DNA from: a virus
IMG/VR virus record: IMGVR_UViG_3300045988_024923
Coordinates: 1 to 43,421 of that record
DNA length: 43,421 nt
Strand: one strand, 5' to 3'
The notes beneath the pieces were generated by a model. It saw only the letters and a list, made by a program, of their open reading frames with translations. It did no database searches and had not been told where the DNA came from. The stretch's first letter is position 1, and each line of letters starts with the position of its first letter. A program made the position numbers and the translations under genes. Shown here one piece after another: positions 1-38,383 of this stretch.

Positions 1-119
1 ACGTCTGGAAATTCCCTTCGGGCGCCGTGGTGATCTTCGGCTCCCTGCCGCACGTCAAGGACAAGTACAACTACCAGGGCAAGCCGTATGACTTCATCGG
101 CTTTGACGAGCTGACGCAG
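1..119. repeat. Terminal direct repeat (left copy), identical to 43303-43421; likely assembly overlap of a circular molecule
   Basis: Base-by-base comparison of both ends. Confidence 0.95.
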
Positions 120-1191: not shown

Positions 1192-3084
1192 ATGGACAGA
1201 CAGGACTTATTCAATAAGGCAATGGGCATGGGGCTTGGCAGTCTCATGCCCCAGCTGCAGCCGCAGCCCGCAGGGCAGATGGCCACCGGGGATGCAATCA
1301 AGGTGGATGACATCCGCAAGGCGGCGGAGACGGTGCGGAAGTACAAGGATGGCAAGAGCCTGCTGGAAAACCGTTTGAAAGAGGATGAGCTGTGGTATCG
1401 GGTGCGGCACTGGGAAGCGGTGCGGAAGAAGTTCAACCCGGATGTGCCGGAGCCGTCCTCCGCATGGCTGTTCAACGCTATCACCAACAAGCACGCCGAC
1501 GCTATGGACAACTACCCGGAGCCGAACGTGCTTCCGAGAGAGGCGGGAGATCAGCAGGAGGCCAAGAAGCTATCCTCCATTCTCCCCTGCGTCATGGAGG
1601 CGGCGGAGTTTGAGGACGTGTATGCGGATGCCTGGTGGGGAAAGCTGAAACACGGCACCGGCGCGTATTTCATCGGGTGGGACCCGGAAAAGGAAAATGG
1701 GCTGGGCGACATTGATATTCACGATCTCGACCTGCTGGACGTTTACTGGGAGCCGGGGATCAAGGACATTCAGCAGAGCCGGAACCTGTTTATCGCAGGC
1801 GTGGCGGAGACAGCAGACCTGGAAGCCCAGTTCCCACAGTACAAGGGCAAGCTTGAGACAGCCACGCCGGATGACTACGCCTACTCTTACGATCCCAACG
1901 TGGACTGGACCGGGAAGAGTTTGGTGTGGGACTGGTATTACAAGAAGAAGGACCTGACCGGGAAGACACTGCTGCATTACTGCAAGTTCTCCGGGGACTG
2001 CATCCTGTATGCCAGCGAGAATGACGCCAACTATTCCGAGCGTGGCTATTATGACCACGGCCTGTACCCGGTGGTATTCGACACCATGTTCCCGGAGGCG
2101 GGAACGCCGTACGGCTTCGGCATGATCGCCATCTGCAAGAACCCACAGCTTTACATCGACAAACTGGGCCAGAACATTCTGGAGCGCAGTCTGCTGGGCA
2201 CCAAGACCCGGTACATTGCATCTTCGCAGGCGGGAATCAATGAGGATGAGCTGAAAGACGCTTCCTGTGCCGTGGTGCATAGCGAGCTGCCGAGACTGGA
2301 CAACGAGCATTTGCAGCCCATCGTGCCGCCCTCTCTAGAAGGCAACTACATCGACGTCTATCAGATGAAGATCGACGAGATGAAGGAGACCAGTGCCAAC
2401 CGGGACATGAACAACGGCGGCACCTCTGGCGTGACGGCGGCAGCGGCCATTGCAGCCCTGCAGGAGTCCGGCAACAAGGTGAGCCGTGACATGATCCAGG
2501 GAAGCTATCGGGCATACCGGAAGGTATGTTCCCTGGTGATCGAGCTGATCCGGCAGTTTTATACGGAGACCCGCACCTTCCGCATTCTGGGCGAGAACGG
2601 GCAGATGGAGTTTGTGGACTTCAACAACGCCGGGATGCAGGATCAGCCGGTGGCGATGCCGGGAAATACGGCGCAGATGTTTCGGCGGCCTGTGTTCGAC
2701 TTGAAGATCAGACCCCAGAAGCGCAGCCCCTTTACCATTGAAGCCCAGTATGAGCGGGCAAAGGAGCTGTATGGCCTGGGGTTCTTCAATCCGGAGAACG
2801 CCCAGCAGAGCATCATTGCCCTGTCCATGATGGACTTTGAAGGTAAGGAGCAGATTTTGCAGCAGGTGCAGCAGGGGCAGACCCTTTTGAACATGGTGCA
2901 GCAGCTCCAGCAGCAGCTTGCCATGTTCCAGGCGGCGGCGGGGATGAATGTGGAGCAGCCGGGGTATCAGGGACAGACAGTCCAGAGCGGCGGTGGAGCT
3001 ACCATTGCACAGGCAAGGCAGGATGCCGTAAATACCAACAAGAAGAGCTACGGCGAACGGCTGGCTGAGAGGAGCAGGGCATGA
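1192..3084 (+). CDS. Portal protein
   Basis: 630 aa, immediately after terL, RBS GGAGGA. Size and Q-rich C-terminal tail are typical of portals. No search was run. Confidence 0.75.
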   Translation: MDRQDLFNKAMGMGLGSLMPQLQPQPAGQMATGDAIKVDDIRKAAETVRKYKDGKSLLENRLKEDELWYRVRHWEAVRKKFNPDVPEPSSAWLFNAITNKHADAMDNYPEPNVLPREAGDQQEAKKLSSILPCVMEAAEFEDVYADAWWGKLKHGTGAYFIGWDPEKENGLGDIDIHDLDLLDVYWEPGIKDIQQSRNLFIAGVAETADLEAQFPQYKGKLETATPDDYAYSYDPNVDWTGKSLVWDWYYKKKDLTGKTLLHYCKFSGDCILYASENDANYSERGYYDHGLYPVVFDTMFPEAGTPYGFGMIAICKNPQLYIDKLGQNILERSLLGTKTRYIASSQAGINEDELKDASCAVVHSELPRLDNEHLQPIVPPSLEGNYIDVYQMKIDEMKETSANRDMNNGGTSGVTAAAAIAALQESGNKVSRDMIQGSYRAYRKVCSLVIELIRQFYTETRTFRILGENGQMEFVDFNNAGMQDQPVAMPGNTAQMFRRPVFDLKIRPQKRSPFTIEAQYERAKELYGLGFFNPENAQQSIIALSMMDFEGKEQILQQVQQGQTLLNMVQQLQQQLAMFQAAAGMNVEQPGYQGQTVQSGGGATIAQARQDAVNTNKKSYGERLAERSRA

Positions 3085-16201: not shown

Positions 16202-19200
16202 ATGGCGACAAAGCCTGTATTTCGGAAAGTCACAACTGCGGCGGAAAGCCAGAAAAAGAACAAGGAGGAGCGGGCAAATACTGCCCGTTCCTCTGATAAG
16301 CCGGTATTCAGAAAAGTAACGACTGCGTGGGGCGGGGATTTGTCTGATGTTAAGGCTCCAACCCAGACGCAAAAACCTACTGTGCGAGGCCCGGCGCGCA
16401 GCAACAGCACTACGCCCAGCCGCAAGCAGTGGAAGGCCACCAATGGCGGGAGAAAAAGCACTACGGATGCGGGGAAGAACAAACCATCTGCACAAAAAAA
16501 GTCCTTCTTTGAGATTGCCACGCAGAATAAGACTCCGGGCCGCGTTGCGGAAAATGCACAGCCCCGGCAGACTTCTTATGCTGGGCAGCTTGGACAGGTA
16601 AGTCGGAACGCGGCAGCTCCTAATAGCCGGTACGATGCCGGGAATTTGCGGACAGCCCAGAAACAGGAAGTTGCTGCGCCCAGCATCGGCAATGCCAGAA
16701 AACTCGACGAGCCGACCTTTATGGAGCGGATTGGCAAGACCGTCACGGGCGGGGCTAAGTCTTCGGCGGCGGCCTATACCAATGTGCGAGGATACATTCA
16801 GGAAGGCACGCACATGGCGCGGGATGTGGATGTGTCCGGGTGGAACCGGGACCTGAACCGCTATCAATACGAACTGAGAAACGCAGACAACGATGCAGAC
16901 AGGGCGTACTGGCAATCAGAAATCGACCGGGTGCGCCGGAATATTCAGAACGCTGGGAAAGCAACCGCCGAATCCAACGCATCCGCACAGAAAAATTACC
17001 GGCTGGCAGATGAAATTGCAGCCAATGCAGAAAAAGACCTGACCCGTGCAAAACAGGGTGCGGGGGCTGTGGGGCGGCTGCTGGTAGACGCGGGGGCGTC
17101 TATGACCCAGAGCGCCCTTGACGCAATCCCCAATCTTATTACTGGCGGCGCAACGGGCATGGTCCCGTTTGCGGCGCGGGCGTTCGGCGGAGCGGCCCAG
17201 CAGGCACGGCAGGACGGCGCTACGTGGGGACAGCAGGGCCTTTACGGCGCAGCATCTGCCGCGAAAGAGGTTTTCACCGAAAAGATGTTCAATATTGCGC
17301 TTCCTTTTGCCAAAGCATACGGCGGCGGTGCGTTGGACGATGTAGTGGAGCGCGGCATTCGCAGTGCGGTAGACAAGTTTGCCAAAACGGAAGTCGGTAA
17401 AAAGGCGCTTGGATCGGCGCTGACTTTTGGAGCCGGAGCGGTTGGCGAGGGCTTGGAGGAGTTCATCGGTGATTGGATGGAATGGCAGCTGCCCCGCATT
17501 TATGGCGGTGACGTAGCGACGGCGCAGGAAACGCTTTCCGATTCTCTGTATGACTTCCTGGTTGGAGCCACGTCCGGCGCGATGGGCGGGCTTGTCAGCC
17601 CCAATACATACCGGTACGATCTGGGCAACACACAGACCGCACAGCGTGGCGTACAGGAGCGCACAGACGTTCAGGAGGGTACACGTACCACCACCGTACA
17701 AACGAACGCACAGACCCAGCAGGAGAACGCGCAGATGGCCATTCAGGAAGCCGTTCAGCGACAGACTGCGAGTAATCCCGTTTCTGCGGAGGAACAGGTC
17801 TTGCGGCAGCGAGAAGCCGCCGTGCAGAAAACCTTTACCGGCATTGCAGACAAGCTGGGGGACAGCGGCAGGAAGGCGTTTCAGACGGCGTATCAGGGGA
17901 CGGACCGTGGTGACTACGCCGGGGAATTTCTGCGGGCGTATCACGCAGGCATGACCAACCAGAAGAACCCCAACAGCACCAGCGCGGTATCCTTTGCGGC
18001 GTATGCGGCAGGGCAGAATGACGCGGCAGCGTCTCTTGCAAGAGAGAAGCGGGCGGCGCAGTTTGCCAAGACCGCCGGAACGGACAGCGGCCTTGTGTTC
18101 GACGATTATGTTTCCCGTGAAATGGACAGTGCTGTTGCCGACGAGGTAAACACCGTGGCAAAGGCATTGGGCGTTCGGGTGCAGATGAAAGATCAGGTAC
18201 TGGGCGGGCAGGCCAACGGCCAGATCACCGGCAGCGACGTTCTGATTGCAAAGGACGCGGTGGACCCTGCTTTGCAGGTGGTCGGCCATGAGTGGACCCA
18301 CCGTGTACAGGAGTTGGCCCCGGAGCAGTACCGGGCGTTCCGGGACGCTGTTACCAGTATGCCGGACGTGCAGGAAGCGACGAACATCCTGCTTGACCAG
18401 TACAACCGGGCGGGTGTTGAAACCAGCTACGAACAGGCATTGGACGAGGCTACCGCCAACTATGCCGGTGAGATGATCGCGAACAGCGACGTGCTGGACG
18501 ATTTCATCCAGAAGCACAGCGCCGACCGGACGCTGCTGCAAAAGCTGCGGGACACCATCCATGAAATCGTGGGCAAGCTGACCGGCAGAGCCAAGCGGCA
18601 GGCCCAGACGGTGGAGGGCAAACTGCAGGCGGCATTTGAAGCGGCCAGCAAGCAGGCGGAAAGCTTGCAGAACCAGCAGACTGATGGTAGAATGCAGGAA
18701 ACGAGATATGCCGTAAAGGAGGGCATGGACGATGGACGAGAAAACGAAATTGGCAGCAGAACTGACACAGGCAGCCGAAAAGAATATGGGCAGAGCCTTG
18801 ACCGAGAAGGAAAAGGCCAAACTGGACGAGTTCGCGGAGAGTTTTCTGCTTCTGCTGGACGATACGGAGGAGTAAATCCGTCCTTTGGGGCCAAGCCGGT
18901 TCGCACTTGGGCCGAAAGGAACACAGTTGAACCGAGCAAGGGCAGTGTGGCCTACGAGGAGCAGCAGGCGGCGGTAAACTACGGCGTGCCTAGCTTTGTG
19001 GTGGCGGATGCAGCATGGGCCAAGAACAAAGGCAACACACCGGCGTTTTCCTCCGGCGGGCAAATCTTTTTCCGGGAGACATTGCCGGAACAGAACCGTG
19101 GAATGATTACGCCTCACGAAGTCACCCATGTGATGAAGCAGGTAGGCTACAAGCCCTATCTTGACTTTGTGGAGCGGACCCCAGAAATGCTGAATATGAG

Positions 19201-22200
19201 TGACCCGGTGACCCGCATATTATTGGATCATGTCGCGAAGCATCAGCGTACCACGATGGAGAACGCAGACCCGTTGCGACTGTATGATGAATTCAATGCA
19301 ACTATCTATGGACATATTGCAACGGGGCAAACGGAAATGTTTACAGATGGAATTGGCATCCATGTGTTTCATGACTTTGCGGCGTATGCCAAAGAACTGA
19401 ACGAACTGCATGAGCGGTTTAAGGCTGACAACCAGAAAAAGGCGAAAGAAAAAACCAGATATGCCCTGAAAGACTACAGCGATGCGGAACAGCGGGACCA
19501 CCGGAAAAAGGCAATCGCCTATTTTGGCAAGACCTACAACTGGAATGAAACCGGCTACCTCACCCCGGCAGGGACAAAGCTGGACTTCTCCGGGCGGCAC
19601 GAGGGCGGCCCCGGCGGATACCGGACAGTAGACCACCGGGACATCCGGGACGCCATCAGCGAGGATTACGGCGGGGATGATTATTCCGGCTCCATGGTGC
19701 AGTTCATGAGCGAGGGCAATATCCGCATTTCACCGGAAAGCGGCGGTATCAACCTTTCCGTGGAACCCACAAAATCCCAGATGGATGCACTGTCGGACTT
19801 TATCGGTAAAAACCGGGGCGAAGTCATTCTTGATCTGGACACCCCAGATGGGCAGACGGTTTCCAGCACGGAGTATCCCAGGGGGACCCATTCCAGCAAG
19901 GTGCTGAATGACATCAAAGCATATTTCAAAGATGGCACGAAGCCCCATGTTTCGGAATTGGCGCAGTTCCTATCGTTGAAAGGCACGGAAAACGCGCAGG
20001 AGATCGCGGCGCTGAAACGGGAAAACGAGAGCCTGAAAGAGCGGGTTGAGTATTGGAAGGGCCAGACCAGACGGTCTCAGGGCGTAACCACCGACCGGAA
20101 ATCCGTTCAGAAGGCGGCGGACGCACTGGTAAAGAACTACGGCGCGGAGATCAGCGGCAGCGACATTGCCGGAGACCTGCAAAGCCTGTATGACTACATT
20201 GCCAGCGGCAAGGATGGCAGGGACGAGCTGACCTATGCAGAGGCGCGGAGACGGTCTGATGCCATTGCGGAGCGGATCGCAGAAAGCGCCGTGGAGGTGG
20301 ATGACCGGGCATACAAGGAATACGCTGGTCTGCGAAAGTATCTGAAAGACACCAAGCTGACGCTGACGGAAGCGGATGCCGCCGAGATCACGGACTTCAA
20401 CGAGTTCCGCAAGAGCTTGTTCGGCAAGCTGAAAATCAGCAAGGGCGAACACACCAATGTTGATCAGATTTATTCCGAACTGTCCAGCCAGTACCCGGAG
20501 TTTTTCAACGAAGCGCAGGAGACCAACATTTCCGACCAGGTGCAGCGAATCGCGGACGTGGCGAACCGGCTGTACAAGGTGACGGAGTACAACCCCTTTG
20601 AAGGCTACATGGGACAGGCCGTGGCGTCTATCTCCAATGACATTATGGACCGGTTCTTTGACCTGCCTCAGGCGAAAAAGACCTTTGCGGACCGGGCAGC
20701 GGAGCAGGTGCAGGATGCCAGATTTCAGGGCAGACAGGCGGCAAATGACGCTTTTCTGGCAGGACAGATGGCACAGGGAAAGCAGGACGCAAAGCGGCTG
20801 CGGAGCACCGCACAGGCACTGTCGAAGGAACGTACCCGGCGGGCGGAGCAGGTGCAGACCCTGAAAGAGCGCTACCGGGAAAAGGACGTGACCCGGCGGG
20901 ACAGCCAGAAGCGGCGGGAGCTGCGGGCAAAGATCACTCGCCATGCCAGCGCATTGTCTCAAAAGCTGCTGCGGCCCACAGACACCCAGCATATTCCGGA
21001 GAAAATGCGCTCCGCCGTGGCAAAGGTGCTGGAAAGCATCAATCAGGAAAGCAGCCCCAATGCACGATCGTTTACACTGGATCCGGTGACGAAGGAGCGG
21101 ATTTACAGGGAAAAGGGCACACCCACCAACCGGACGGCGGCGTTTCAGAATCTGAAAGAGCAGTACCAGCAAATCGCCAAAGAAGGCGATATGGTAGTAG
21201 ACCCGTCTTTGCTGGGTGACGAGGACGTGCCCGGTGGATTCAGCGAGGTTATCAAGATGGGGGACACCCGCCTTGCAGACCTGACCACAGAGCAGCTGCA
21301 AACCATGTGGAACGTGCTGAAATCTGTGGAGCATTCCGTGACTACGGCAGGCAAGACGCTGGCGTCGGAGAAATTCGCGACCACCAAGCAGTTTGCCGAT
21401 GCGCTCCGCATGGACGGCATGACCCGGCGGCGAAAGTTGGGGAACAACGTGGCAATCAGCCTGGAAACGCCCTATACGTTCTTTGCCCACTTCGGGCAGA
21501 CCGGCAAGGACATTTACCGGATGCTGCGGAACGCTCAGGATCAACAGGAGATCATGGCGCGGGATGTGGCAGAAAAGGTGCAGAAGGTCTTGGGCGATAC
21601 CGAGAAAAAAGGCCTGCGGAGCAACGCCGTAACTGCCATGAACGAGGAAACCCACCATTTCACCACGGCGGAGGGCCAGGAACTGACGCTGACCACAGCA
21701 CAAGCTATGGATCTTTATCTGCTGAGTGAACGGAAACAGGCGGAGGATCATCTGCTGAAAGGCGGCATCGTGCAGCCGGAGATCAAGATCCCAGGCAAGG
21801 CCAAAATCCCCAGAGGAACGGACGTGATCCATCTTTCCGCAGAGGATATCCAGTCCATTGTGAAGGCTTTGACTCCGGAGCAGATCAGGATCGCGGATGG
21901 CTTGCAGAAGCTGACCACCGGCACGCTTGCCAACTACGGCAACGAGGCCAGCATGAAAGCCTACGGCTATAAGAAATTCACGGAGCAGGACTACTGGCCC
22001 ATTAAATCTGCAAAGGAAGTACTGCACAGCTCCCCGGAAAAGGATAGCGGGAATGTGCGCTCCATTAAGAATATCGGCATGGCGCAGGCGGTAAACCCCA
22101 AAGCGTCTAACGCATTGGAAGTCCGGAGTGTGTTCAGCACATTTTCAGACCATGCCTCCGATATGATCGACTACGCGGCGTGGCTGTGCCCCATGGAGGA

Positions 22201-24286
22201 CGCGAACCGGCTGTTTAACTACGAGTTTGAGGACGGTGAGGGAAACAAAACTGGTGCGACAGTCAAGGGCTTTTTGGATGAAAAAGGCGGGGAAGGCTCT
22301 CAAGATTACTGGCAAAAGCTGATGGGTGACATTCAGAACGGCATTAATGAAAAGAATTTTGAGCCATTCAGCAAAGTGATTGTAAAGAAAGCCTTTTCCA
22401 ATTACAAAGCATCCAGAGTACTGTTCAATTTGAGAGTAGCCGGTCAGCAGCCGTTCGCATGGTTCCGGGCAAGAGATGTCTTAAATCATGTTGATATGGT
22501 AAAAGGCTTGACCAGCGGCGTAACGAAGGGCAGCGGATGGGAAAAGGCTGTGAAGTATTCCCCCATTGCCATGCGGAAGGACACGGGCAGTTTCGACGTT
22601 ACCTCCCCGTACACCCTGAATGACCGCTTTTACGGGAAAGAGGGCTTTATCAACAAGGTGAATGAAGCGGGCGGCATACTTGCCGAGGCGGCGGACGCTT
22701 TCACATGGGGAAAACTGTGGAACGCCTGCGAGTGGCAGGTGAAGCGGGAGAGGCCCAATCTGCGGGCTGGCAGCGGCGAATTTTACAGCGCAGTCAATGA
22801 AGTGTTCACCAACATGATCGACCAGACGCAGGTGGTAGACGGCATTTTGCAGCGCTCCAATATCATGCGCTCCTCAGACAGACTTGACAAACTGGCAACT
22901 TCCTTCATGGGTGAACCCATTATGAGCCTGAATGTGTTTATGCGAAAATGGGATGCCCTGCGGTATGAGGAAGACCCTGTTAAGCGTAAAGCGGCCATGA
23001 AGGCGTTGAGCCGATCACTTGCGGTTCTGATTTCATCAGAGGTCGCGACAGCGGTCGTACAGAGCCTTTCAGACGCAAAGCGGGATGACGATGATGACAA
23101 GGACTACTGGGAAAAGTTCATAGAAGCAATGACCGGTATTACCGGGGATGAAGAAACCATGACAGAAATCCTGAAAAATGTTGTCTTCGAGGGGAACGTT
23201 GGGCAGAACCTAAATCCGATCAATAAACTCCCCTATTTGAAAGACATCAACTCCATGTGGCAGGGATATAAGGTTGTTCGGATGGATTTAGGCGTGTACC
23301 AGGACAATGTAAAAGCAAGCAAAGCGTTTATAGAATCTCTTAACGGGCAAGGTGTAAAAACTCGGCAAGATGCGCTAACTACGGCGCTTGGAGCCGCAGG
23401 GGAATTTTGGGGAATCGCCGGTTCCAACCTCAAACGGGAAATCTACTCCGCAATCGACACCATCTTTCAGGCGACCGGGAATGTGGCGCTGCAATATGAG
23501 TGGGACAAACTGACGTACAACATCTACAGCACGTCCAACAAAGACCGTTACATGGGACTGGCGTTCAAGGCGCTGGAACAGGGCGACTTGACCACTTATG
23601 AGCACATCCGCAAGGAACTGAAGGACTACATGGCAGTGGACAGCACCAGCGTGGACAGCGGGATGCGAAGCCGTCTTGAAAAGAAGCAGGAAAAGGACGG
23701 GGATTACCGTCTACCCCAGAACGCCGCAAGCCTAATTGGGGCAAAAGACAGCTACGATGACAGCGAGGGCGAGGACAAATTCACGGAAAACGATCTCAGC
23801 TCCGATGACTACATCGCATACAGCCGGAGAAAGTCCGAGCTTTACAGTTCCGTGGAATCCGGGCTGAAAGACAGCCAGACGTTCCAAAAGTTCACCGGGG
23901 AGCAGAAGGACAAGGCCCTGTCCAGCGCGGAGACCTACGCAAAAAAGACGGCGCTGCATGAGGTGGACAACACCTATGAAATTACCGACAAATGGATCTT
24001 GAAAGCGCAGGAGGCGCAGAAGAAGTATGGCATTGACCCGGCTGTCTATGTGGCGCTGAAAACGCAGGTTTCCGAGATTGAAAGCGTCAAGGATAGGAAC
24101 GGGGAGACCATTCCCAACAGCAAGGGGCTGCTTATCATGCAGGCGGTTTACAACACGCCGGGGCTGCATGAGAACCAGCGGAACGCACTGTTTGAGTATC
24201 TGGGGGTAGGCAAAAGCATCCGGCATTACAACAAGGCGCTTGTGAACGAGAAAGTCCGAAAGAACGCCCAGCTGGCCGGGAAATAA
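16202..24286 (+). CDS. Giant polyvalent virion protein (2694 aa) with two zincin-like HExxH motifs
   Basis: RBS AAGGAGG. HEWTH at 18287-18301 and HEVTH at 19115-19129. N-terminal peptide KPVFRKVTTA is duplicated. Long coiled-coil stretches. Confidence 0.7.
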   Translation: MATKPVFRKVTTAAESQKKNKEERANTARSSDKPVFRKVTTAWGGDLSDVKAPTQTQKPTVRGPARSNSTTPSRKQWKATNGGRKSTTDAGKNKPSAQKKSFFEIATQNKTPGRVAENAQPRQTSYAGQLGQVSRNAAAPNSRYDAGNLRTAQKQEVAAPSIGNARKLDEPTFMERIGKTVTGGAKSSAAAYTNVRGYIQEGTHMARDVDVSGWNRDLNRYQYELRNADNDADRAYWQSEIDRVRRNIQNAGKATAESNASAQKNYRLADEIAANAEKDLTRAKQGAGAVGRLLVDAGASMTQSALDAIPNLITGGATGMVPFAARAFGGAAQQARQDGATWGQQGLYGAASAAKEVFTEKMFNIALPFAKAYGGGALDDVVERGIRSAVDKFAKTEVGKKALGSALTFGAGAVGEGLEEFIGDWMEWQLPRIYGGDVATAQETLSDSLYDFLVGATSGAMGGLVSPNTYRYDLGNTQTAQRGVQERTDVQEGTRTTTVQTNAQTQQENAQMAIQEAVQRQTASNPVSAEEQVLRQREAAVQKTFTGIADKLGDSGRKAFQTAYQGTDRGDYAGEFLRAYHAGMTNQKNPNSTSAVSFAAYAAGQNDAAASLAREKRAAQFAKTAGTDSGLVFDDYVSREMDSAVADEVNTVAKALGVRVQMKDQVLGGQANGQITGSDVLIAKDAVDPALQVVGHEWTHRVQELAPEQYRAFRDAVTSMPDVQEATNILLDQYNRAGVETSYEQALDEATANYAGEMIANSDVLDDFIQKHSADRTLLQKLRDTIHEIVGKLTGRAKRQAQTVEGKLQAAFEAASKQAESLQNQQTDGRMQETRYAVKEGMDDGRENEIGSRTDTGSRKEYGQSLDREGKGQTGRVRGEFSASAGRYGGVNPSFGAKPVRTWAERNTVEPSKGSVAYEEQQAAVNYGVPSFVVADAAWAKNKGNTPAFSSGGQIFFRETLPEQNRGMITPHEVTHVMKQVGYKPYLDFVERTPEMLNMSDPVTRILLDHVAKHQRTTMENADPLRLYDEFNATIYGHIATGQTEMFTDGIGIHVFHDFAAYAKELNELHERFKADNQKKAKEKTRYALKDYSDAEQRDHRKKAIAYFGKTYNWNETGYLTPAGTKLDFSGRHEGGPGGYRTVDHRDIRDAISEDYGGDDYSGSMVQFMSEGNIRISPESGGINLSVEPTKSQMDALSDFIGKNRGEVILDLDTPDGQTVSSTEYPRGTHSSKVLNDIKAYFKDGTKPHVSELAQFLSLKGTENAQEIAALKRENESLKERVEYWKGQTRRSQGVTTDRKSVQKAADALVKNYGAEISGSDIAGDLQSLYDYIASGKDGRDELTYAEARRRSDAIAERIAESAVEVDDRAYKEYAGLRKYLKDTKLTLTEADAAEITDFNEFRKSLFGKLKISKGEHTNVDQIYSELSSQYPEFFNEAQETNISDQVQRIADVANRLYKVTEYNPFEGYMGQAVASISNDIMDRFFDLPQAKKTFADRAAEQVQDARFQGRQAANDAFLAGQMAQGKQDAKRLRSTAQALSKERTRRAEQVQTLKERYREKDVTRRDSQKRRELRAKITRHASALSQKLLRPTDTQHIPEKMRSAVAKVLESINQESSPNARSFTLDPVTKERIYREKGTPTNRTAAFQNLKEQYQQIAKEGDMVVDPSLLGDEDVPGGFSEVIKMGDTRLADLTTEQLQTMWNVLKSVEHSVTTAGKTLASEKFATTKQFADALRMDGMTRRRKLGNNVAISLETPYTFFAHFGQTGKDIYRMLRNAQDQQEIMARDVAEKVQKVLGDTEKKGLRSNAVTAMNEETHHFTTAEGQELTLTTAQAMDLYLLSERKQAEDHLLKGGIVQPEIKIPGKAKIPRGTDVIHLSAEDIQSIVKALTPEQIRIADGLQKLTTGTLANYGNEASMKAYGYKKFTEQDYWPIKSAKEVLHSSPEKDSGNVRSIKNIGMAQAVNPKASNALEVRSVFSTFSDHASDMIDYAAWLCPMEDANRLFNYEFEDGEGNKTGATVKGFLDEKGGEGSQDYWQKLMGDIQNGINEKNFEPFSKVIVKKAFSNYKASRVLFNLRVAGQQPFAWFRARDVLNHVDMVKGLTSGVTKGSGWEKAVKYSPIAMRKDTGSFDVTSPYTLNDRFYGKEGFINKVNEAGGILAEAADAFTWGKLWNACEWQVKRERPNLRAGSGEFYSAVNEVFTNMIDQTQVVDGILQRSNIMRSSDRLDKLATSFMGEPIMSLNVFMRKWDALRYEEDPVKRKAAMKALSRSLAVLISSEVATAVVQSLSDAKRDDDDDKDYWEKFIEAMTGITGDEETMTEILKNVVFEGNVGQNLNPINKLPYLKDINSMWQGYKVVRMDLGVYQDNVKASKAFIESLNGQGVKTRQDALTTALGAAGEFWGIAGSNLKREIYSAIDTIFQATGNVALQYEWDKLTYNIYSTSNKDRYMGLAFKALEQGDLTTYEHIRKELKDYMAVDSTSVDSGMRSRLEKKQEKDGDYRLPQNAASLIGAKDSYDDSEGEDKFTENDLSSDDYIAYSRRKSELYSSVESGLKDSQTFQKFTGEQKDKALSSAETYAKKTALHEVDNTYEITDKWILKAQEAQKKYGIDPAVYVALKTQVSEIESVKDRNGETIPNSKGLLIMQAVYNTPGLHENQRNALFEYLGVGKSIRHYNKALVNEKVRKNAQLAGK

Positions 24287-27242: not shown

Positions 27243-28274
27243 TTATTCCCCCGTCTGTAATTTCATCTGTAATTCTTGCTCAAAATAGCGGTCGAGATCG
27301 TCGGCAACCTGCTTTGATTTCTTACTCATGGTATGCTGATATACATTTTTCAGCATATTATTTGTGGCGTGGCCCATGCGCTCCATGGCGTATTTATCCG
27401 GGACATTCTGTTCCAGCATGACCGAAGCATTCACGTGGCGGAGATCGTGGAACCGGAAGGGGGCGATATTATTTCGGGCACAGGCGCGGCGGAGGTGGTT
27501 ATACATGGCGTTGCGGGTATAGTGGACAATAAACTGGTCCGTTTTCGGGGCGGCATCCAGCAAGCCTTTGATATATGGCGGGATTTGCAGACGCCGATTG
27601 CCGCTGTATGTTTTCGGCTGCTTTAACTCAGGCCCGTTTTCACCTTCAACGAGTGCTTGCTTGATGATAAGCGTATTCCCATCAATGCAATCCCATGTCA
27701 GGCCGCGAATCTCCGATGTTCTCAGGCCAAGCCAGACGGCCAGCAGAAACGGCAGCTCAAATTGTTTCCCACGGCAATCCTCATGCAGTGTCCGGATCTG
27801 GTCCATGGTGGGGATTTGGATTTTTGGAGCTTCCTTCTGTGGCAGCGTAATGCGGAATATCCGATCTGGGAAATATTCTGCCATTGCTGCGGTGAACAAC
27901 CCGTAGGCATTGCGGACGTATTTAGGCGATTTGGAGCGAGCCATTTTATTAACGGCCCGTTGTACACGCTCTTGCGAAATGCTATCCGCTGGATCATCCA
28001 TGATTTCCTGGAAAACGGATTTGCGGAGCTTTTTATACCCATTGATCGTAGTAGGGGATAGAACGGTATCTTTGCTGGAAATGTATCTATCGATTACTTC
28101 TCCAACGGTGAACTTTGTTTTTATCTTGGCGGCTTTGGCACCAGACTTGATGGCGGCAGCTTCATTTTCAGCTTCTCGCTTGGTCGGAGCCGTGATGGAG
28201 AGACGCTTCCCGTCTATCATGATGTTGATATACCATGAGCCGGACGGCAGCTTTACTGCCTTTGGTATCTTCAT
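27243..28274 (-). CDS. int: Tyrosine integrase
   Basis: 343 aa. C-terminal catalytic pattern LRTSEIRGL ... FRFHDLRHV ... MGHATNNMLKNVYQHT. Confidence 0.95.
   Translation of the reverse strand: MKIPKAVKLPSGSWYINIMIDGKRLSITAPTKREAENEAAAIKSGAKAAKIKTKFTVGEVIDRYISSKDTVLSPTTINGYKKLRKSVFQEIMDDPADSISQERVQRAVNKMARSKSPKYVRNAYGLFTAAMAEYFPDRIFRITLPQKEAPKIQIPTMDQIRTLHEDCRGKQFELPFLLAVWLGLRTSEIRGLTWDCIDGNTLIIKQALVEGENGPELKQPKTYSGNRRLQIPPYIKGLLDAAPKTDQFIVHYTRNAMYNHLRRACARNNIAPFRFHDLRHVNASVMLEQNVPDKYAMERMGHATNNMLKNVYQHTMSKKSKQVADDLDRYFEQELQMKLQTGE
27252..27274 (-). repeat. Two more copies of the (C/G)TCTGTAATT repeat inside the integrase 3' end
   Basis: Direct observation. Confidence 0.5.
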
Positions 28275-35630: not shown

Positions 35631-36059
35631 CATCCATGAGGACGGTGACCTGCTGGCAACCAAGGAAGCCGTTGCGATGCTGCTGGAGCCTCTGGGCCGC
35701 CCCCGGTTTATGCGGAACGGCCACGCCTACACCCCGCAGAAAACGCGGGACTACGAGGGCAAGGTAGTCCAGTGCTGGAAGTGCCAGAGCGGGAAAGGCT
35801 TTGCGGACGGCATCCCGCTCAGGGCCACCGTCACGGCGTTCTTCAAGTTCCAAAAAGCACGTCAAAGAAAAAGGCCGCTGCGATGGACGGAACGCCCCAC
35901 ATCAAGCGCCCTGACGCTGACAACGTGGCGAAGGCCATTCTGGATGCACTGAACGGCCACGCCTACAACGATGACAGCGCAATCGCACTGCTGACCGTGC
36001 GGAAGTATCAGACAACCGGTGCCTCCCGCGTGGAGGTCACCATTGAGGAGGCAGAATGA
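35611..36059 (+). pseudogene. rusA: RusA-type Holliday junction resolvase split by a -1 frame change at an A5 run (35852-35856)
   Basis: The N-terminal half is in frame 1 (RBS AAAGGAGGG; AYTPQKTRDYE; ATVTAFFKF). The C-terminal half is in frame 3 (KSTSKKK...KRPDADNVAKAILDALNG..YNDDS). Adding one A would restore a single ORF. Confidence 0.7.
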
Positions 36060-36388: not shown

Positions 36389-36672
36389 CCCGTGAAGAGA
36401 TTTTAGCCGCTGCCAAGCAGTGCGTGTGCGGAGACAGGGACCAGGATTACGGTAGCCCGGAAAAGTCCTTCAACATGATCGCAGCCCTGTGGGAGCCGTA
36501 CCTACGGCAGAAATGCGTCAACCCGGACGGCGACGTCTGCATCACCGGCGCTGACGTGAGGGCTATGATGTGCCTGTTTAAGCTGGCCCGCATCGCCACC
36601 GGCCACGGCAAAGCAGATAACTGGATTGATCTTGCCGGATATGCCGCCTGCGGCGGGGAATTGGAGGGCTGA
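36385..36672 (+). CDS. Conserved small phage protein (DUF6378-like pattern)
   Basis: Pattern GDRDQDYGSPEKSFNMIAALW...KLARI.. recalled from a phage family. No search was run. Confidence 0.45.
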   Translation: MTREEILAAAKQCVCGDRDQDYGSPEKSFNMIAALWEPYLRQKCVNPDGDVCITGADVRAMMCLFKLARIATGHGKADNWIDLAGYAACGGELEG

Positions 36673-36673
36673 T

Positions 36674-38383
36674 ATGCTCCATCTTGGTGACATAACGAAA
36701 ATCAATGGGGCGGAAGCGCCCGTTGTGGACGTGGTGATCGGTGGCAGTCCATGCCAGGACCTTTCCATTGCTGGAAAGCGGGCAGGGCTTGCCGGGGCGC
36801 GTTCCGGCCTGTATATGGAGCAAATACGGATTATCAAGGAGATGAGAGAACGTGACATGGCAAGCGGGCGAACAGGTGAGTTTGTGCGACCTCGGTATAT
36901 GGTCTGGGAAAATGTACCCGGAGCCTTCAGCTCCAACGGAGGAAAAGACTTCGCAGCCGTCCTTGAAGAAGCCATCCGCATCGCAGAACCGGAAGCCCCC
37001 GATATTGATGTGCCTGAAAAAGGTTGGAACACCTGGGGAGGGTATCACGATGAAGTGGGAGGACGATGGAGCGTGGCGTGGCGAGTGCTTGACGCGCAAC
37101 ACTGGGGAGTCCCCCAACGTCGCCGTAGAATCGCGCTTGTCGCAGATTTTGGAGGCGACACCGCATGGGAAATACTGTTTGAGCGCAAAAGCGTGTCAGG
37201 GTATCCTGCGGAGAGCGGAGCGGAGGGGGAAAGACCTTCCGCCGGTGTTGAAAGCGGTGCTGCTTACGCAGTTCGAATCAGGGGGGGCTGTGACGGAGGA
37301 GGCAAGGGAGCCTTAGTCCAGACGGAGAAAAGCGGGACGATTAAGGCAGGGAATGACCAGACGCTTTTCTGCATGGCAACTCAGCAAGGCGGGGCCGAGG
37401 TACGAAGCGATGACCGTGCGCCGACCTTGACCGCTTCCGCAGGCATGAGCGGGAACAACCAGCCGGTTGTATGCGCCGGGTTTAAGCTGGGGAACAGTGA
37501 ACAGGCCCGGAGCATCGGATACGCAGAGGAACAGGCCCCTACGCTGAATGCGGAGTGCGGGGGGAATAAACCGGCGGTGATGTGCTTGAACGATCAGGGT
37601 GGGAATGTGATGGGCGTGAGCCATGATGTTTCCGGGACGTTGAGAGCACAGGAGCATGGGCACCAGCCCTCCATTCTGGATATGAGCCACGCCTGCGACG
37701 TGATCCGGGACTGCGGCGAGGTAGCACCCAGTCTGCAAGCCCGTATGGGAACCGGCGGCAACCAAATCCCGCTGACGTACCAAATGCAGGGATTTGGCGA
37801 TTACCGCGAGGGGGACGTTGCAAGCAGCTGCAAGCAGAGAGATTTCAAGGGCAGCACTGATCTTGTATGTTCCGTAGACTGCCGAAACTTTACAGAGGGC
37901 GGGGAAATCAACGGAACCTTGCAGGCAAAGGAAAGCGGAGGCCAAAGCCTGAACCTGAACAATACGATCCGGCAGAATCAAGTGGTTCGCCGTTTGACCC
38001 CGTTGGAGTGCGAACGGCTTCAAGGATTCCCTGACCACTGGACCGACTTGGGCGAGTGGACGGACAGCAATGGCAAGCGTCACAAGGACGCGGACAGCCC
38101 CCGGTATAAGGCACTGGGTAATTCCATCGCCCTGCCGCCGTGGAAATGGCTGCTGAAACGGCTGTGCGGCAACTACGAGCGTGACGCCACAATGGCGAGT
38201 TTGTTCGATGGAATAGGAGGATTCCCTTTGATTTGGGAGCAGCTGAACGGACGCGGAACGTGCCTATGGGCCAGTGAGATTGAAGAGTTCCCCATCGCCG
38301 TGACCAAACGGCGGTTCGGCACGGTAGAGAAACCGGGAGACATGGGGCGGTTTTTGTTCCCATGCGGAAAGGATGAATTATGA
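36674..38383 (+). CDS. DNA (cytosine-5) methyltransferase, circularly permuted motif order, with repeated TRD-like modules
   Basis: Motif IV GGSPCQDLS (PCQ at 36749-36757), VI ENVPG (ENV 36908-36916), VIII QRRRR, IX RRLTPLECERLQGFP and X YKALGNSIALP. Motif I MASLFDGIGGF (from 38192) and motif II ASEIEEF come after these, at the C-terminus. Confidence 0.85.
   Translation: MLHLGDITKINGAEAPVVDVVIGGSPCQDLSIAGKRAGLAGARSGLYMEQIRIIKEMRERDMASGRTGEFVRPRYMVWENVPGAFSSNGGKDFAAVLEEAIRIAEPEAPDIDVPEKGWNTWGGYHDEVGGRWSVAWRVLDAQHWGVPQRRRRIALVADFGGDTAWEILFERKSVSGYPAESGAEGERPSAGVESGAAYAVRIRGGCDGGGKGALVQTEKSGTIKAGNDQTLFCMATQQGGAEVRSDDRAPTLTASAGMSGNNQPVVCAGFKLGNSEQARSIGYAEEQAPTLNAECGGNKPAVMCLNDQGGNVMGVSHDVSGTLRAQEHGHQPSILDMSHACDVIRDCGEVAPSLQARMGTGGNQIPLTYQMQGFGDYREGDVASSCKQRDFKGSTDLVCSVDCRNFTEGGEINGTLQAKESGGQSLNLNNTIRQNQVVRRLTPLECERLQGFPDHWTDLGEWTDSNGKRHKDADSPRYKALGNSIALPPWKWLLKRLCGNYERDATMASLFDGIGGFPLIWEQLNGRGTCLWASEIEEFPIAVTKRRFGTVEKPGDMGRFLFPCGKDEL

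What the first reader, a model, noticed from the sequence alone, without database searches (positions are those of the whole stretch)
36674..38383. Circularly permuted C5 cytosine methyltransferase with six TL-type target-recognition repeats
- The canonical C5-MTase motif order is I, II, ..., IV (PCQ), VI (ENV), VIII (QxRxR), TRD, IX, X.
- This ORF starts about 20 residues before motif IV (MLHLGDITKINGAEAPVVDVVIGGSPCQDLS). It then runs through ENVPG, QRRRR, RRLTPLECERLQGFP and YKALGNSIALP.
- Motif I (MASLFDGIGGF, with an internal in-frame Met at 38192) and motif II (ASEIEEFPIAV) follow at the extreme C-terminus.
- This is the arrangement expected from permutation by duplication: two tandem MTase genes fused, the first losing its 5' end and the second its 3' end.
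- In C5-MTase folds motif X packs against motif I, so the permuted chain could still fold.
- Permuted C5 enzymes are known in plants (DRM family) but with a different breakpoint. I do not know of a described phage enzyme with this order.
- The variable region (about 37331-37930) holds six spaced modules: SGTIKA, APTLTA, APTLNA, SGTLRA, APSLQA, NGTLQA. Each is followed by a short (N/H)(Q/K)-type element. This resembles the tandem TRDs of multispecific Bacillus phage MTases.
Basis: partly seen in the sequence, partly recalled or inferred. Interest (0 to 1): 0.68.

Follow-up and report, generated by a model that had tools for sequence, protein, structure and literature searches.

The report
Circularly permuted phage cytosine methyltransferase
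A gut phage carries a DNA cytosine methyltransferase whose first two sequence motifs have moved to the end of the protein, an arrangement that engineers found highly active but that had not been reported in nature; the same gene also hides a second, conserved reading frame.

Summary
ORF 36674..38383 (+, 569 aa) is a C5 cytosine methyltransferase with motif order III-IV-VI-VIII-variable region-IX-X-I-II. The new N-terminus lies between motifs II and III.

It is not a misassembly or a remnant. All 120 closest database proteins, from many independent assemblies, share the order. So do about 125 of the 150 nearest 50%-identity cluster representatives. Catalytic residues are invariant, and some relatives carry inteins in motifs IV and VI.

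This is the "Type B" topology. It was the most active engineered permutant of M.MpeI and M.SssI, and in 2018 it was reported absent from natural enzymes in REBASE.

The six TL-type modules are real (0 of 20,000 shuffles reach six). Close relatives differ by clean gain, loss or swap of 30-45 aa cassettes. This supports a modular, possibly multispecific, recognition region, but specificity is untested.

One unexpected finding: a +1-frame ORF (37050..37316) overlaps motif VIII and the linker after it. It shows the codon-position signature of protein coding and is conserved in related methyltransferase genes of phages of Firmicutes, Actinobacteria and Proteobacteria. The precedent is the nested beta chain of M.EcoHK31I. 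Poly-G tracts beside it change the frame relations in relatives.

The parts
36663..36668 (+). Shine-Dalgarno-like GGAGGG, 5 nt before the ATG of the methyltransferase
   Evidence: Read directly. The upstream DUF6378 gene stops at 36670-36672.
36674..38383 (+). Circularly permuted C5 cytosine methyltransferase gene (569 aa, stop included), motif order III-IV-VI-VIII-variable-IX-X-I-II
   Evidence: AlphaFold2 model with a diverse alignment: pLDDT above 90 for residues 1-170 and 440-550. Foldseek best hits are M.HhaI, M.HaeIII and M.MpeI.
36683..36757 (+). Motif III (LGDI) through motif IV (GGSPCQ; catalytic Cys27 codon at 36752-36754)
   Evidence: Aligned to HhaI 59-115. P26, C27 and Q28 are invariant in 86 diverse permuted relatives.
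36908..36916 (+). Motif VI (ENV)
   Evidence: E79, N80 and V81 invariant.
37115..37129 (+). Motif VIII (QRRRR)
   Evidence: Q148, R149, R150 and R152 invariant.
37130..37987 (+). Variable region. It comprises a relaxed linker (about 37130-37290) followed by six TL-type cassettes, with cores at 37331-37348, 37418-37435, 37535-37552, 37631-37648, 37724-37741 and 37910-37927.
   Evidence: pLDDT is below 50 in the model.
37988..38137 (+). Motif IX (RRLTPLECERLQGFP) through motif X (YKALGNSIALP)
38138..38191 (+). Linker that joins the ancestral C-terminus (helix after motif X) to the ancestral N-terminus
   Evidence: Rotated alignment with canonical relatives. The same linker type occurs in L249.
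38192..38317 (+). Transposed N-terminal module: motif I (MASLFDGIGGF) and motif II (ASEIEEFPIAVTKRRF)
   Evidence: Aligned to HhaI 15-56. pLDDT 93-97.
38318..38380 (+). Lineage-specific 21-aa tail (GTVEKPGDMGRFLFPCGKDEL), possibly with a vestigial motif III (GD at the canonical spacing)
   Evidence: Most permuted relatives end 1-5 aa after RF(G/P). A few long tails keep GD-x-x-K/R-like strings: 3 strict hits against 0.02 expected. This evidence is weak.
37050..37316 (+). Nested +1-frame ORF (88 aa from ATG 37050; the frame is open from 36852). Its product is MKWEDDGAWRGECLTRNTGESPNVAVESRLSQILEATPHGKYCLSAKACQGILRRAERRGKDLPPVLKAVLLTQ...
   Evidence: The +1 frame shows the coding signature where frame 0 is relaxed. 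It is conserved across phages of three phyla.
37035..37042 (+). GGGGAGGG. In the window it can serve as a Shine-Dalgarno sequence 7 nt before ATG 37050. In relatives it is a G7-G9 tract whose indels put motifs III-VI in frame with the +1 peptide.
37281..37287 (+). G7 tract where frame 0 and the +1 frame converge. Relatives with G8 or G9 have the +1 peptide fused in frame to the cassettes and motifs IX, X, I and II, and frame 0 stops.

Best explanation
The gene encodes a functional orphan phage DNA (cytosine-5) methyltransferase with a natural 'Type B' circular permutation.

Fold and mechanism.
- The chain starts at motif III and runs through the catalytic motifs IV-VIII, a long modular recognition region, and motifs IX-X.
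- A short linker then leads to strand beta1 and motifs I-II, which hold S-adenosylmethionine.
- In C5 enzymes the C-terminal helix after motif X packs next to motif I. The permuted chain can therefore close the same Rossmann-like fold. That packing is established knowledge; closure in this protein is inferred from the confident model.
- Chemistry should be canonical: Cys27 of PCQ attacks C6 of a flipped cytosine, and methyl is transferred from AdoMet bound by motifs I-III and X (inferred from invariant residues).

Origin. The most likely route is head-to-tail fusion of two gene copies, followed by loss of motifs I-II from the first copy and of everything after motif II from the second. The new start codon is the conserved Met that lies two residues before HLGD in canonical relatives.

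Recognition region. It is a string of about 30-45 aa cassettes, each resembling a minimal TL/Gly-loop recognition unit. Recombination adds, removes and swaps these cassettes. This probably changes or multiplies the sequences methylated and helps this temperate gut phage escape host restriction (inferred).

Nested reading frame. Inside the gene, a conserved +1-frame ORF most likely gives a small basic protein. It may work with the enzyme as a subunit or regulator, as the nested beta chain of M.EcoHK31I does (hypothesis).
For: Motif order and family.
- Motif order shown by profile and pairwise alignment.
- The same order in all 120 closest proteins, from many independent assemblies and sources.
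- The same order in about 125 of the 150 nearest 50%-identity representatives.
- Catalytic and cofactor residues are invariant across 86 diverse permuted relatives: P26 C27 Q28, E79 N80 V81, Q148 R149 R150 R152, G482 N483, F511 G513.

Evidence of function.
- Inteins sit in motif IV and motif VI of relatives. Inteins typically sit in active sites of functional proteins.
- The AlphaFold2 model is confident for both halves of the catalytic domain. Foldseek finds M.HhaI, M.HaeIII and M.MpeI at probability 1.0.
- Engineered permutants cut at the same place (cp62M.MpeI, cp58M.SssI) were the most active of ten types, comparable to wild type. Fusing the native ends needed no linker (PMC5944983).

Origin.
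- The rotated sequence is colinear with canonical relatives.
- A complete Type-H-like relative has the same X-I fusion.

Recognition region and context.
- Cassette mosaic between near-identical cores.
- Repeat statistics.
- Phage context with integrase, portal and terminase, and no restriction endonuclease found among the neighbouring ORFs scanned.

Nested ORF and its precedent (PMC2836561).
Against: - No activity, specificity or expression data exist for any member.
- The variable region is modelled with low confidence (pLDDT 30-45).
- Foldseek aligns only the III-VIII block because it is a sequential aligner. Closure of the fold by the C-terminal I-II module was not shown by superposition.
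- About a quarter of related loci carry a 4-nt insertion that puts a stop right after the catalytic Cys codon. The two cultured Faecalibacterium phages have the gene in two frames at a G9 tract. Some members may therefore be inactive or phase-variable.
- The variable region shows no detectable similarity to known multispecific enzymes.
- The duplication route is inferred. No tandem two-copy ancestor was found.
Confidence: 0.78

Rival explanations
1. The repeats form one large recognition domain. The six TL-type modules are structural repeats of a single domain that reads one motif, or gives relaxed specificity. They are not six independent specificity units.
For: - No sequence similarity to the tandem recognition domains of Bacillus phage multispecific enzymes.
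- Several cassettes are nearly invariant among relatives, for example the APSLQA and NGTLQA cassettes. This would fit a structural role.
- The model gives no independent folded units.
Against: - Close relatives with almost identical catalytic cores differ by clean presence, absence or replacement of whole cassettes. The variable region ranges from 231 to 440 aa. A single tightly packed domain would be unlikely to tolerate this.
- Each cassette has the size and the TL/Gly-loop pattern of a minimal C5 recognition unit. This comparison rests on knowledge of M.HhaI and the SPR-type enzymes and was not tested here.
Confidence: 0.35
2. The active enzyme is a heterodimer or needs recoding. The frame-0 protein alone is not the active enzyme. 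It needs the +1-frame product (37050..37316) as a second subunit. Alternatively, slippage at the poly-G tracts produces the working polypeptides, as a split enzyme cut between motif VIII and the recognition region.
For: - The +1 frame is under protein-level selection exactly where frame 0 is a relaxed linker.
- It is present in 60 of 60 loci retrieved without reference to it, and in distant phages and isolate genomes.
- Relatives exist with the +1 peptide fused to the upstream half or to the downstream half through G-tract length changes.
- M.EcoHK31I needs a beta chain encoded in another frame inside the alpha gene.
- C5 enzymes split between motif VIII and the recognition domain complement well.
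Against: - Frame 0 holds all ten motifs, including its own motif IX.
- The +1 profile shows no similarity to any part of the methyltransferase profile, to Pfam or NCBIfam, or to PDB sequences.
- There is no conserved start codon or slip site.
- G-tract differences in metagenome assemblies may be sequencing errors.
Confidence: 0.3
3. The gene is a decaying remnant of a tandem duplication and makes no active enzyme.
For: - Frameshifted relatives are common: TAGA after the Cys codon in 43 of 167 loci.
- G-tract frame changes occur in relatives.
- FP_Toutatis is annotated as two CDS.
Against: - The window copy is intact.
- The family spans more than 100 clusters at 50% identity with all catalytic residues invariant.
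- Active-site inteins are present in relatives.
- Both halves of the catalytic domain are modelled with pLDDT above 90.
- The engineered equivalent is fully active.
Confidence: 0.06
4. The permuted order arose by gene fission and re-fusion in the opposite order, through illegitimate recombination in a mosaic phage genome, and not by tandem duplication.
For: - No two-copy intermediate was found.
- Split versions of the family exist (Omega gp127/gp128; Toutatis).
- M.MpeI fragments [1-61]+[62-395] complement well, so a split I-II module could have survived as a separate gene.
Against: - No relative was seen with motifs I-II as a free-standing ORF.
- A Type-H-like relative shares the same X-I linker while keeping the II-III junction. 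This is what different truncations of one tandem fusion would give.
- A few long C-terminal tails keep a GD string at the canonical motif III spacing.
Confidence: 0.2

Closest known systems
[quoted passage not shown] 2018, PMC5944983)
   Same: The new N-terminus lies between motifs II and III, and the native C- and N-termini are joined. The order is III-X followed by I-II. These permutants were the most active of the ten permutation types made.
   Different: Those are laboratory constructs of CG-specific mycoplasma and spiroplasma enzymes with a single recognition domain. The window gene is natural, belongs to a phage family, has a long cassette-type variable region, and has an 18-aa natural linker.
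Natural permuted C5 methyltransferases of Type H / class F / zeta (M.BssHII, M.Alw26I, M2.Eco31I, M.Esp3I, M2.BsaI)
   Same: They are prokaryotic C5 enzymes with circularly permuted motifs and a fused X-I junction. A relative of the window gene (L249) has this topology.
   Different: Their break lies in the variable region, so IX-X precede I-VIII. In the window gene the break lies between II and III, so the AdoMet-binding module is split.
Plant DRM2 / tobacco DRM (PDB 7L4C, 4ONJ)
   Same: They are C5 methyltransferases with rearranged motifs. The query gives weak sequence and fold hits to them.
   Different: In DRM, motifs VI-X precede I-V. These are eukaryotic, RNA-directed enzymes with a different breakpoint and no cassette region.
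Multispecific Bacillus phage C5 methyltransferases (M.SPRI, M.Phi3TI, M.Rho11sI, M.H2I, M.phiBssHII; cited in PMC8936443, refs 45 and 56-59)
   Same: They are phage-encoded orphan C5 enzymes with several short recognition units in tandem between motifs VIII and IX. The number and order of units differ between related phages.
   Different: They have canonical motif order. No detectable sequence similarity to their variable regions was found. Multispecificity of the window enzyme is untested.
M.EcoHK31I (alpha chain plus a beta chain encoded in another reading frame inside the alpha gene; PMC2836561)
   Same: It is a C5 methyltransferase gene that contains a second ORF in an alternative frame. 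Several internal starts of that ORF are usable.
   Different: The beta chain carries motif IX, which alpha lacks. In the window gene frame 0 has its own motif IX, the +1 ORF overlaps motif VIII and the linker, and a requirement for activity is unknown.
Canonical relatives in prophages of Streptococcus, Bacillaceae and Clostridium (for example Javan261 QBX16565.1, and about 720-aa enzymes in Clostridium manihotivorum CT4)
   Same: They belong to the same subfamily. They share 'HLGDITK', 'ADFGG..EILFE', cassettes with PTLxA..GGNxQP, and the same nested +1 ORF.
   Different: Motifs I-II are at the N-terminus.

Membership tests
DNA (cytosine-5) methyltransferase, Pfam PF00145 / TIGR00675 | Profile score above the curated cut-off | tested here: met
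   PF00145 scores 126.2 bits against a cut-off of 22. TIGR00675 scores 123.7 against 100.65.
DNA (cytosine-5) methyltransferase, Pfam PF00145 / TIGR00675 | Catalytic motifs IV (PCQ with Cys), VI (ENV) and VIII (QxRxR), and cofactor motifs I (FxGxGG) and X (GNS) | tested here: met
   All are present and invariant in 86 diverse relatives.
DNA (cytosine-5) methyltransferase, Pfam PF00145 / TIGR00675 | Canonical linear order I to X | tested here: not met
   The order is III-IV-VI-VIII-IX-X-I-II. The order is not required for the fold.
DNA (cytosine-5) methyltransferase, Pfam PF00145 / TIGR00675 | Transfers methyl to C5 of cytosine in DNA | not testable with these tools
   This needs expression and methylome reading.
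Type B circular permutation of C5 methyltransferases (defined on engineered enzymes) | N-terminus between motifs II and III, with the native termini covalently joined | tested here: met
   The break falls at HhaI residues 56/59. The rotated alignment is colinear with canonical relatives.
Natural Type H / class F permuted C5 methyltransferases (M.BssHII group) | N-terminus in the variable region, with IX-X preceding I-VIII | tested here: not met
   The window protein starts at motif III. Only the relative L249 has this order.
DRM-type rearranged C5 methyltransferases | Motifs VI-X precede I-V | tested here: not met
   Motifs IV and VI are N-terminal and in canonical relative order.
Multispecific phage C5 methyltransferases (SPR type) | Several short recognition units in tandem, varying in number between related phages | tested here: met
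   Six TL-type units. Cassette gain, loss and swap occur among relatives.
Multispecific phage C5 methyltransferases (SPR type) | Each unit confers one target specificity | not testable with these tools
   No methylation data are available.
Multispecific phage C5 methyltransferases (SPR type) | Sequence relationship of the recognition units to those of SPR, phi3T, rho11s or H2 | tested here: not met
   tblastn of the variable region finds only gut Clostridia phages. No Bacillus phage is hit at E <= 1e-3.
M.EcoHK31I-type enzyme with a nested alternative-frame subunit | A second ORF in another frame inside the methyltransferase gene | tested here: met
   The +1 ORF at 37050..37316 is conserved and shows a coding signature.
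M.EcoHK31I-type enzyme with a nested alternative-frame subunit | The nested product supplies motif IX, which the main chain lacks | tested here: not met
   Frame 0 has RRLTPLECERLQGFP. hhalign of the +1 profile against the methyltransferase profile gives probability 0.2%.
M.EcoHK31I-type enzyme with a nested alternative-frame subunit | Both products are required for activity | not testable with these tools
   This needs frame-0-silent knock-out of the +1 ORF.

The most novel reading that the evidence does not exclude
A large subfamily of phage and prophage C5 methyltransferase genes carries a nested gene in the +1 frame.
- The subfamily includes canonical, Type B and Type H forms.
- It occurs in phages of Firmicutes, Actinobacteria and Proteobacteria.
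- The nested gene lies across motif VIII and the following linker.
- Its product would be a basic protein of about 60-90 aa, ending ...SLSQILE...KYxLSxKACxGILRRAxRRGKxLPxxLKxAL.
- It would be an obligatory partner or regulator of the enzyme, or an accessory function that must travel with it, such as protection against methylation-dependent restriction.
- In the gut-phage clade, poly-G tracts on either side let the phage switch between a fused enzyme, a split enzyme and an off state.
Probability: 0.3. Interest if true: 0.82.

Novelty: new variant of a known kind. Interest (0 to 1): 0.62.

Why it matters
Natural counterpart of an engineered topology. Engineering work showed that cutting a C5 methyltransferase between motifs II and III gives the best permutant, and asked why nature does not use it. 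This gene, and the large gut-phage family around it, show that nature does. That gives a natural test case for permutation by duplication, with Type B, Type H and canonical forms in one family. It also shows that current topology classifications of m5C enzymes are incomplete.

Recognition region. The cassette-type region is a ready-made natural library for studying how short units set target specificity. It is also useful for building split or targeted methyltransferases.

Biological relevance. These enzymes are common in prophages of Oscillospiraceae, Ruminococcaceae and Faecalibacterium. They probably shape phage host range and the methylomes of major human gut bacteria.

Nested frame. If the +1-frame ORF is expressed, it would be one of the most widely conserved overlapping genes known in phages. 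It would also be a second case, after M.EcoHK31I, of a methyltransferase gene that encodes two proteins in two frames.

Tried and rejected
- Misassembly. Rejected, because the same order is found in hundreds of independent contigs, in cultured phages and in MAGs.
- Missing motifs I-II supplied by a neighbouring gene. Rejected. The upstream gene is DUF6378 and the downstream gene is DUF551.
- First AlphaFold2 run with 44 close relatives. It failed (mean pLDDT 29) and was discarded. A second run with 86 diverse relatives worked for the catalytic parts only.
- Foldseek cannot show non-sequential superposition. It confirms only the III-VIII block.
- The 'MVHLVRQDLS' proteins without catalytic Cys. 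They are gene-calling products of a 4-nt TAGA insertion, not a Cys-less enzyme class. TAG read as Gln does not restore the frame. No convincing slip site was found. This is left unexplained.
- A +1 ribosomal slip at GGAG-N2-CCC_C in motif VIII as the way into the nested frame. Attractive, because the Pro codon is CCC in 135 of 135 loci where the residue is Pro, and in 60 of 60 in the second set. It is not universal: Cronobacter phage JK004 has GGC GTT CCA.
- Similarity of the +1 peptide to anything known. No hit in Pfam, NCBIfam or PDB. There is only a weak PHROG hit to short 'DNA methyltransferase' entries. hhalign against the enzyme itself is negative. My recollection that it resembles the post-motif-VIII segment of E. 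coli Dcm, or motif IX, remains an untested lead.
- The two protein searches with the +1 peptide returned only short ORF calls of 64-154 aa. No annotated long fusion appeared among the best 120.
- A negative control for the +1 ORF. Four more distant phage enzymes were fetched. Three had the ORF too, and the fourth escaped my pattern. No true negative control was obtained.
- Two old EMBO J papers on multispecific enzymes were not held.
Full report
**What is there.** ORF 36674..38383 on the + strand encodes 569 aa. GGAGGG lies 5 nt before the ATG, and the ATG follows the stop of the upstream DUF6378 gene by one base. A longer ORF from TTG 36626 is mechanical: the homologues start at the Met of M-x-HLGDITK. 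Pfam PF00145 and TIGR00675 both score well above their cut-offs, each in four separate stretches.

**Motif order.** phmmer against M.HhaI gives these placements:
- query 508-553 on HhaI 15-56 (motifs I and II)
- query 5-61 on HhaI 59-115 (motifs III and IV)
- query 134-157 on HhaI 147-170 (motif VIII)
- query 435-456 on HhaI 268-289 (motif IX)

The order is therefore III-IV-VI-VIII-variable-IX-X-I-II. The break lies exactly between motifs II and III.

**Not an artefact and not a one-off.**
- All 120 best database hits (67-100% identical, 514-723 aa, several sources) have the same order. Single clusters were seen on up to 53 contigs.
- Among the 150 nearest representatives of 50%-identity clusters, about 125 end with ...IX-X-I. 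Only a handful are canonical.
- Across 86 diverse permuted relatives the catalytic and cofactor residues are invariant: PCQ, ENV, Q-R-R-x-R, GN of motif X, and F-x-G of motif I.
- Some relatives carry inteins inserted at GGSP|CQ and at ENV|..GAFSS, that is, in active-site motifs.
- Hosts, where named, are gut Clostridia: Faecalibacterium, Ruminococcus, Oscillospiraceae, Acutalibacteraceae, Dysosmobacter.
- The window is a temperate phage genome with a tyrosine integrase, a P22-like portal and a terminase. The methyltransferase sits in the early region between RusA and DUF6378 on one side and DUF551 on the other. No restriction enzyme gene was found among the neighbouring ORFs scanned.

**Fold.**
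- An AlphaFold2 run with only close relatives failed.
- With 86 diverse relatives the model has pLDDT above 90 for residues 1-170 and 440-550. The variable region is unmodelled.
- Foldseek finds M.HhaI, M.HaeIII and M.MpeI at probability 1.0, with rmsd 2.6-3.2 Å over about 160 columns.
- Because Foldseek aligns sequentially, it sees only the III-VIII block. Closure by the C-terminal I-II module is inferred, not superposed.

**Junctions and origin.**
- Rotating the sequence (507-569 followed by 1-506) makes it colinear with canonical relatives P0330, P0333 and P0309. The alignment score rises by 100-128 over the native order.
- Canonical enzymes read ...FPIAVTTKRFPNME-HLGDITKI.... The permuted protein starts MLHLGDITKI, using the conserved Met, and ends ...FPIAVTKRRFG plus a 20-aa tail.
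- Most permuted relatives end 1-5 residues after RF(G/P). The protein is thus an exact rotation with no duplicated core segment.
- The linker ...PPWKWLLKRLCGNYERDAT-MASLFDG joins the old C-terminal helix to the old N-terminus.
- One relative, L249, is a complete 393-aa ORF inside its contig. It has the same type of X-I linker but an intact II-III junction, and it starts in the variable region (Type H order).
- Two different cuts of one head-to-tail fusion are what permutation by duplication predicts. I did not find a two-copy intermediate, so fission and re-fusion remains possible.

**Comparison with what is known.**
- Slaska-Kiss et al. 2018 (PMC5944983) built permutants of M.MpeI and M.SssI. 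'Class B' (new N-terminus between motifs II and III) was by far the most active, comparable to wild type, and needed no linker.
- Their REBASE search found 27 natural permuted C5 enzymes, all cut in the variable region. [quoted passage not shown]
- A REBASE-based topology classification (bioRxiv 10.1101/2023.12.13.571470, version of December 2025) lists only two m5C topologies: canonical and the M2.Eco31I type.
- Plant DRM enzymes are cut between motifs V and VI.
- The window gene is therefore a natural member of a topology so far known only from engineering, and it represents a large family.
- The sequences are already in public databases under generic names. In FP_Toutatis the gene is annotated as two 'DNA-cytosine methyltransferase' CDS. 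I found no description of the topology.

**The variable region.**
- The six TL-type cores are highly non-random: 6 observed against 0.06 expected, with no shuffle of 20,000 reaching 6. Five carry the following Gly-rich element.
- In an alignment of twelve relatives, the catalytic parts are 90-100% identical. The variable region differs by clean insertion, deletion or replacement of blocks of about 30-45 aa, each ending in a ..[PG][TS]L.A..GG.(Q/K)P..V unit. Total length ranges from 231 to 440 aa.
- This is the behaviour known for the tandem recognition domains of the multispecific Bacillus phage enzymes (my knowledge; titles cited in PMC8936443).
- tblastn of the region finds only gut Clostridia phages, so this is an analogy, not membership.
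- Whether each cassette reads its own target was not testable.

**An unexpected second reading frame.**

*Discovery.* Frame +1 is open from 36852 to 37316. From ATG 37050, preceded by GGGGAGGG, it would give an 88-aa basic protein. tblastn with this peptide hits 138 phage records. In Streptococcus phage Javan261, Mycobacterium phage Omega gp127 and Caulobacter phage DMCA, the match again lies in the +1 frame of the annotated methyltransferase CDS.

*Codon-position signature.* On 19 non-redundant sequences the pattern switches along the gene:
- Around motif VIII the third position of frame 0 is the most variable (0.46, against 0.12 and 0.20 at the other two positions).
- From 'KYxLS' to 'LPxxLKxAL' the third position of the +1 frame is the most variable (0.59-0.60). 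Its second position is the least variable (0.19-0.26).

In that stretch the +1 frame is the one under protein-level selection, and frame 0 is a relaxed linker.

*Distribution.* In 60 distinct loci retrieved only through the C-terminal IX-X-I-II region, all 60 have the +1 frame open at least 59 codons past motif VIII. The +2 frame has a median of 24 codons.

*Synonymous-site constraint.* The Pro codon of G-V-P-Q is CCC in 60 of 60 of these loci, against 19% CCC at other Pro codons of the same genes. Synonymous-codon shuffling gives per-sequence probabilities of 0.016-0.43 for the open frame in 17 sequences.

*Wider occurrence.* The same arrangement occurs in isolate genomes, including Clostridium manihotivorum CT4, Heyndrickxia, Robertmurraya, Niallia and Lysinibacillus. 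It also occurs in Cronobacter, Enterobacter and Streptococcus phages. Gene callers have produced about 2,500 short proteins from it. One is an NCBI 'hypothetical protein' of Heyndrickxia oleronia.

*What remains unknown.* I found no universal start codon or slip site. I found no similarity to any known family or to the enzyme itself.

[quoted passage not shown] Several internal Met codons can serve as its start (PMC2836561). In M.EcoHK31I beta supplies motif IX. Here frame 0 has its own motif IX, so the role of the +1 product is open.

**Poly-G tracts and frame variants.** In the gut-phage clade two G-rich tracts flank the part of the gene where the +1 frame is the selected one.
- Downstream tract. 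It is G7 in the window (37281-37287). In relatives with G8 or G9, frame 0 stops and the +1 peptide is fused to the cassettes and motifs IX, X, I and II. This gives a split enzyme cut between motif VIII and the recognition region.
- Upstream tract. It reads GGGGAGGG in the window (37035-37042) and is G7-G9 in relatives. One-base differences there put motifs III-VI in frame with the +1 peptide. FP_Toutatis has G9 and is annotated as two CDS.
- Interpretation. I cannot tell from assemblies whether these are phase variation, slippage or sequencing errors.

**Another unexplained variant.** In 43 of 167 related loci the motif IV region reads GGSPC-TAG, with QDLS following 4 nt later.
- The 24-mer around it is identical in at least four different 5' backgrounds. 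Each background keeps a 27-codon mini-ORF with motif III/IV residues.
- The downstream ORF usually stays open for 500-640 codons.
- It may be a null allele spread by recombination, a recoding site, or a scar at the intein insertion point.
- The window gene has the intact PCQ.

**Verdict.**
- The gene is best described as a natural Type B circularly permuted, probably active, orphan phage C5 methyltransferase with a cassette-type recognition region.
- This is a new variant of a known kind of enzyme.
- The nested +1 ORF is the most novel element and deserves its own follow-up.

Noticed in passing
window 37050-37316 (+1 frame of the methyltransferase; open from 36852): A nested ORF encodes a basic peptide of about 88 aa (...SRLSQILE...KYCLSAKACQGILRRAERRGKDLPPVLKAVL...). 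It shows the codon-position signature of coding where frame 0 is a relaxed linker. It is conserved in the +1 frame of related methyltransferase genes in phages of Firmicutes, Actinobacteria and Proteobacteria and in isolate genomes. No known family matches it. Its start and its function are unknown.
   Followed up: partly
window 37281-37287 (G7) and 37035-37042 (GGGGAGGG); L001 3320-3328 (G9); L018, L021, L037, L053 (G8 or G9): Two G-rich tracts flank the +1-specific segment. In relatives, one-base length differences fuse the +1 peptide either to motifs III-VI or to the cassettes and motifs IX-X-I-II. This splits the enzyme or switches it off. The cause could be phase variation, slippage or assembly error.
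   Followed up: partly
L006 nt 88-103; also L007-L009, L012-L014, L043-L049, L056-L063, L169-L204 and others: In 43 of 167 related loci, a 4-nt insertion (TAGA) directly after the catalytic Cys codon gives GGSPC-stop, with QDLS... following in another frame. The surrounding 24-mer is identical in at least four different 5' backgrounds. Both flanking ORFs stay conserved. Gene callers report Cys-less 'MVHLVRQDLS' proteins from these loci.
   Followed up: partly
proteins P0310, P0266, P0268 (relatives): Inteins are inserted in the permuted methyltransferase. One lies between GGSP and CQ (motif IV). Others lie after ENV (motif VI).
   Followed up: no
L249 1695-2876, 1114-1695, 2461-2901, 3122-3385: A complete relative has Type-H-like order (TRD-IX-X-I-...-VIII, 393 aa) and the same X-I linker. 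It lies next to an NPPY-type amino-methyltransferase. Its +1 ORF runs past the methyltransferase stop. A separate 87-aa ORF downstream is made of two recognition-type cassettes.
   Followed up: partly
protein P0329 (1201 aa relative): This permuted enzyme has a very long cassette region. Further recognition-type cassettes follow the C-terminal motifs I-II. This recalls M.phiBssHII, which has recognition domains at separated locations.
   Followed up: no
L004 (Mycobacterium phage Omega gp127/gp128): A canonical-order relative is naturally split into two ORFs after the linker that follows motif VIII. The +1 ORF lies inside gp127.
   Followed up: no
window 16202-24286 (+): A single ORF of 2694 aa lies in the structural region of the phage. 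It was not examined.
   Followed up: no
window 27243-28274 (-), 1192-3084 (+), 27-1181 (+), 35772-36059 (+): Tyrosine integrase, P22-like portal, terminase large subunit (the window starts inside or just before it) and RusA. The window looks like a near-complete temperate phage genome of about 43 kb. Its only near relatives in GenBank phage records are unannotated human faecal contigs.
   Followed up: partly
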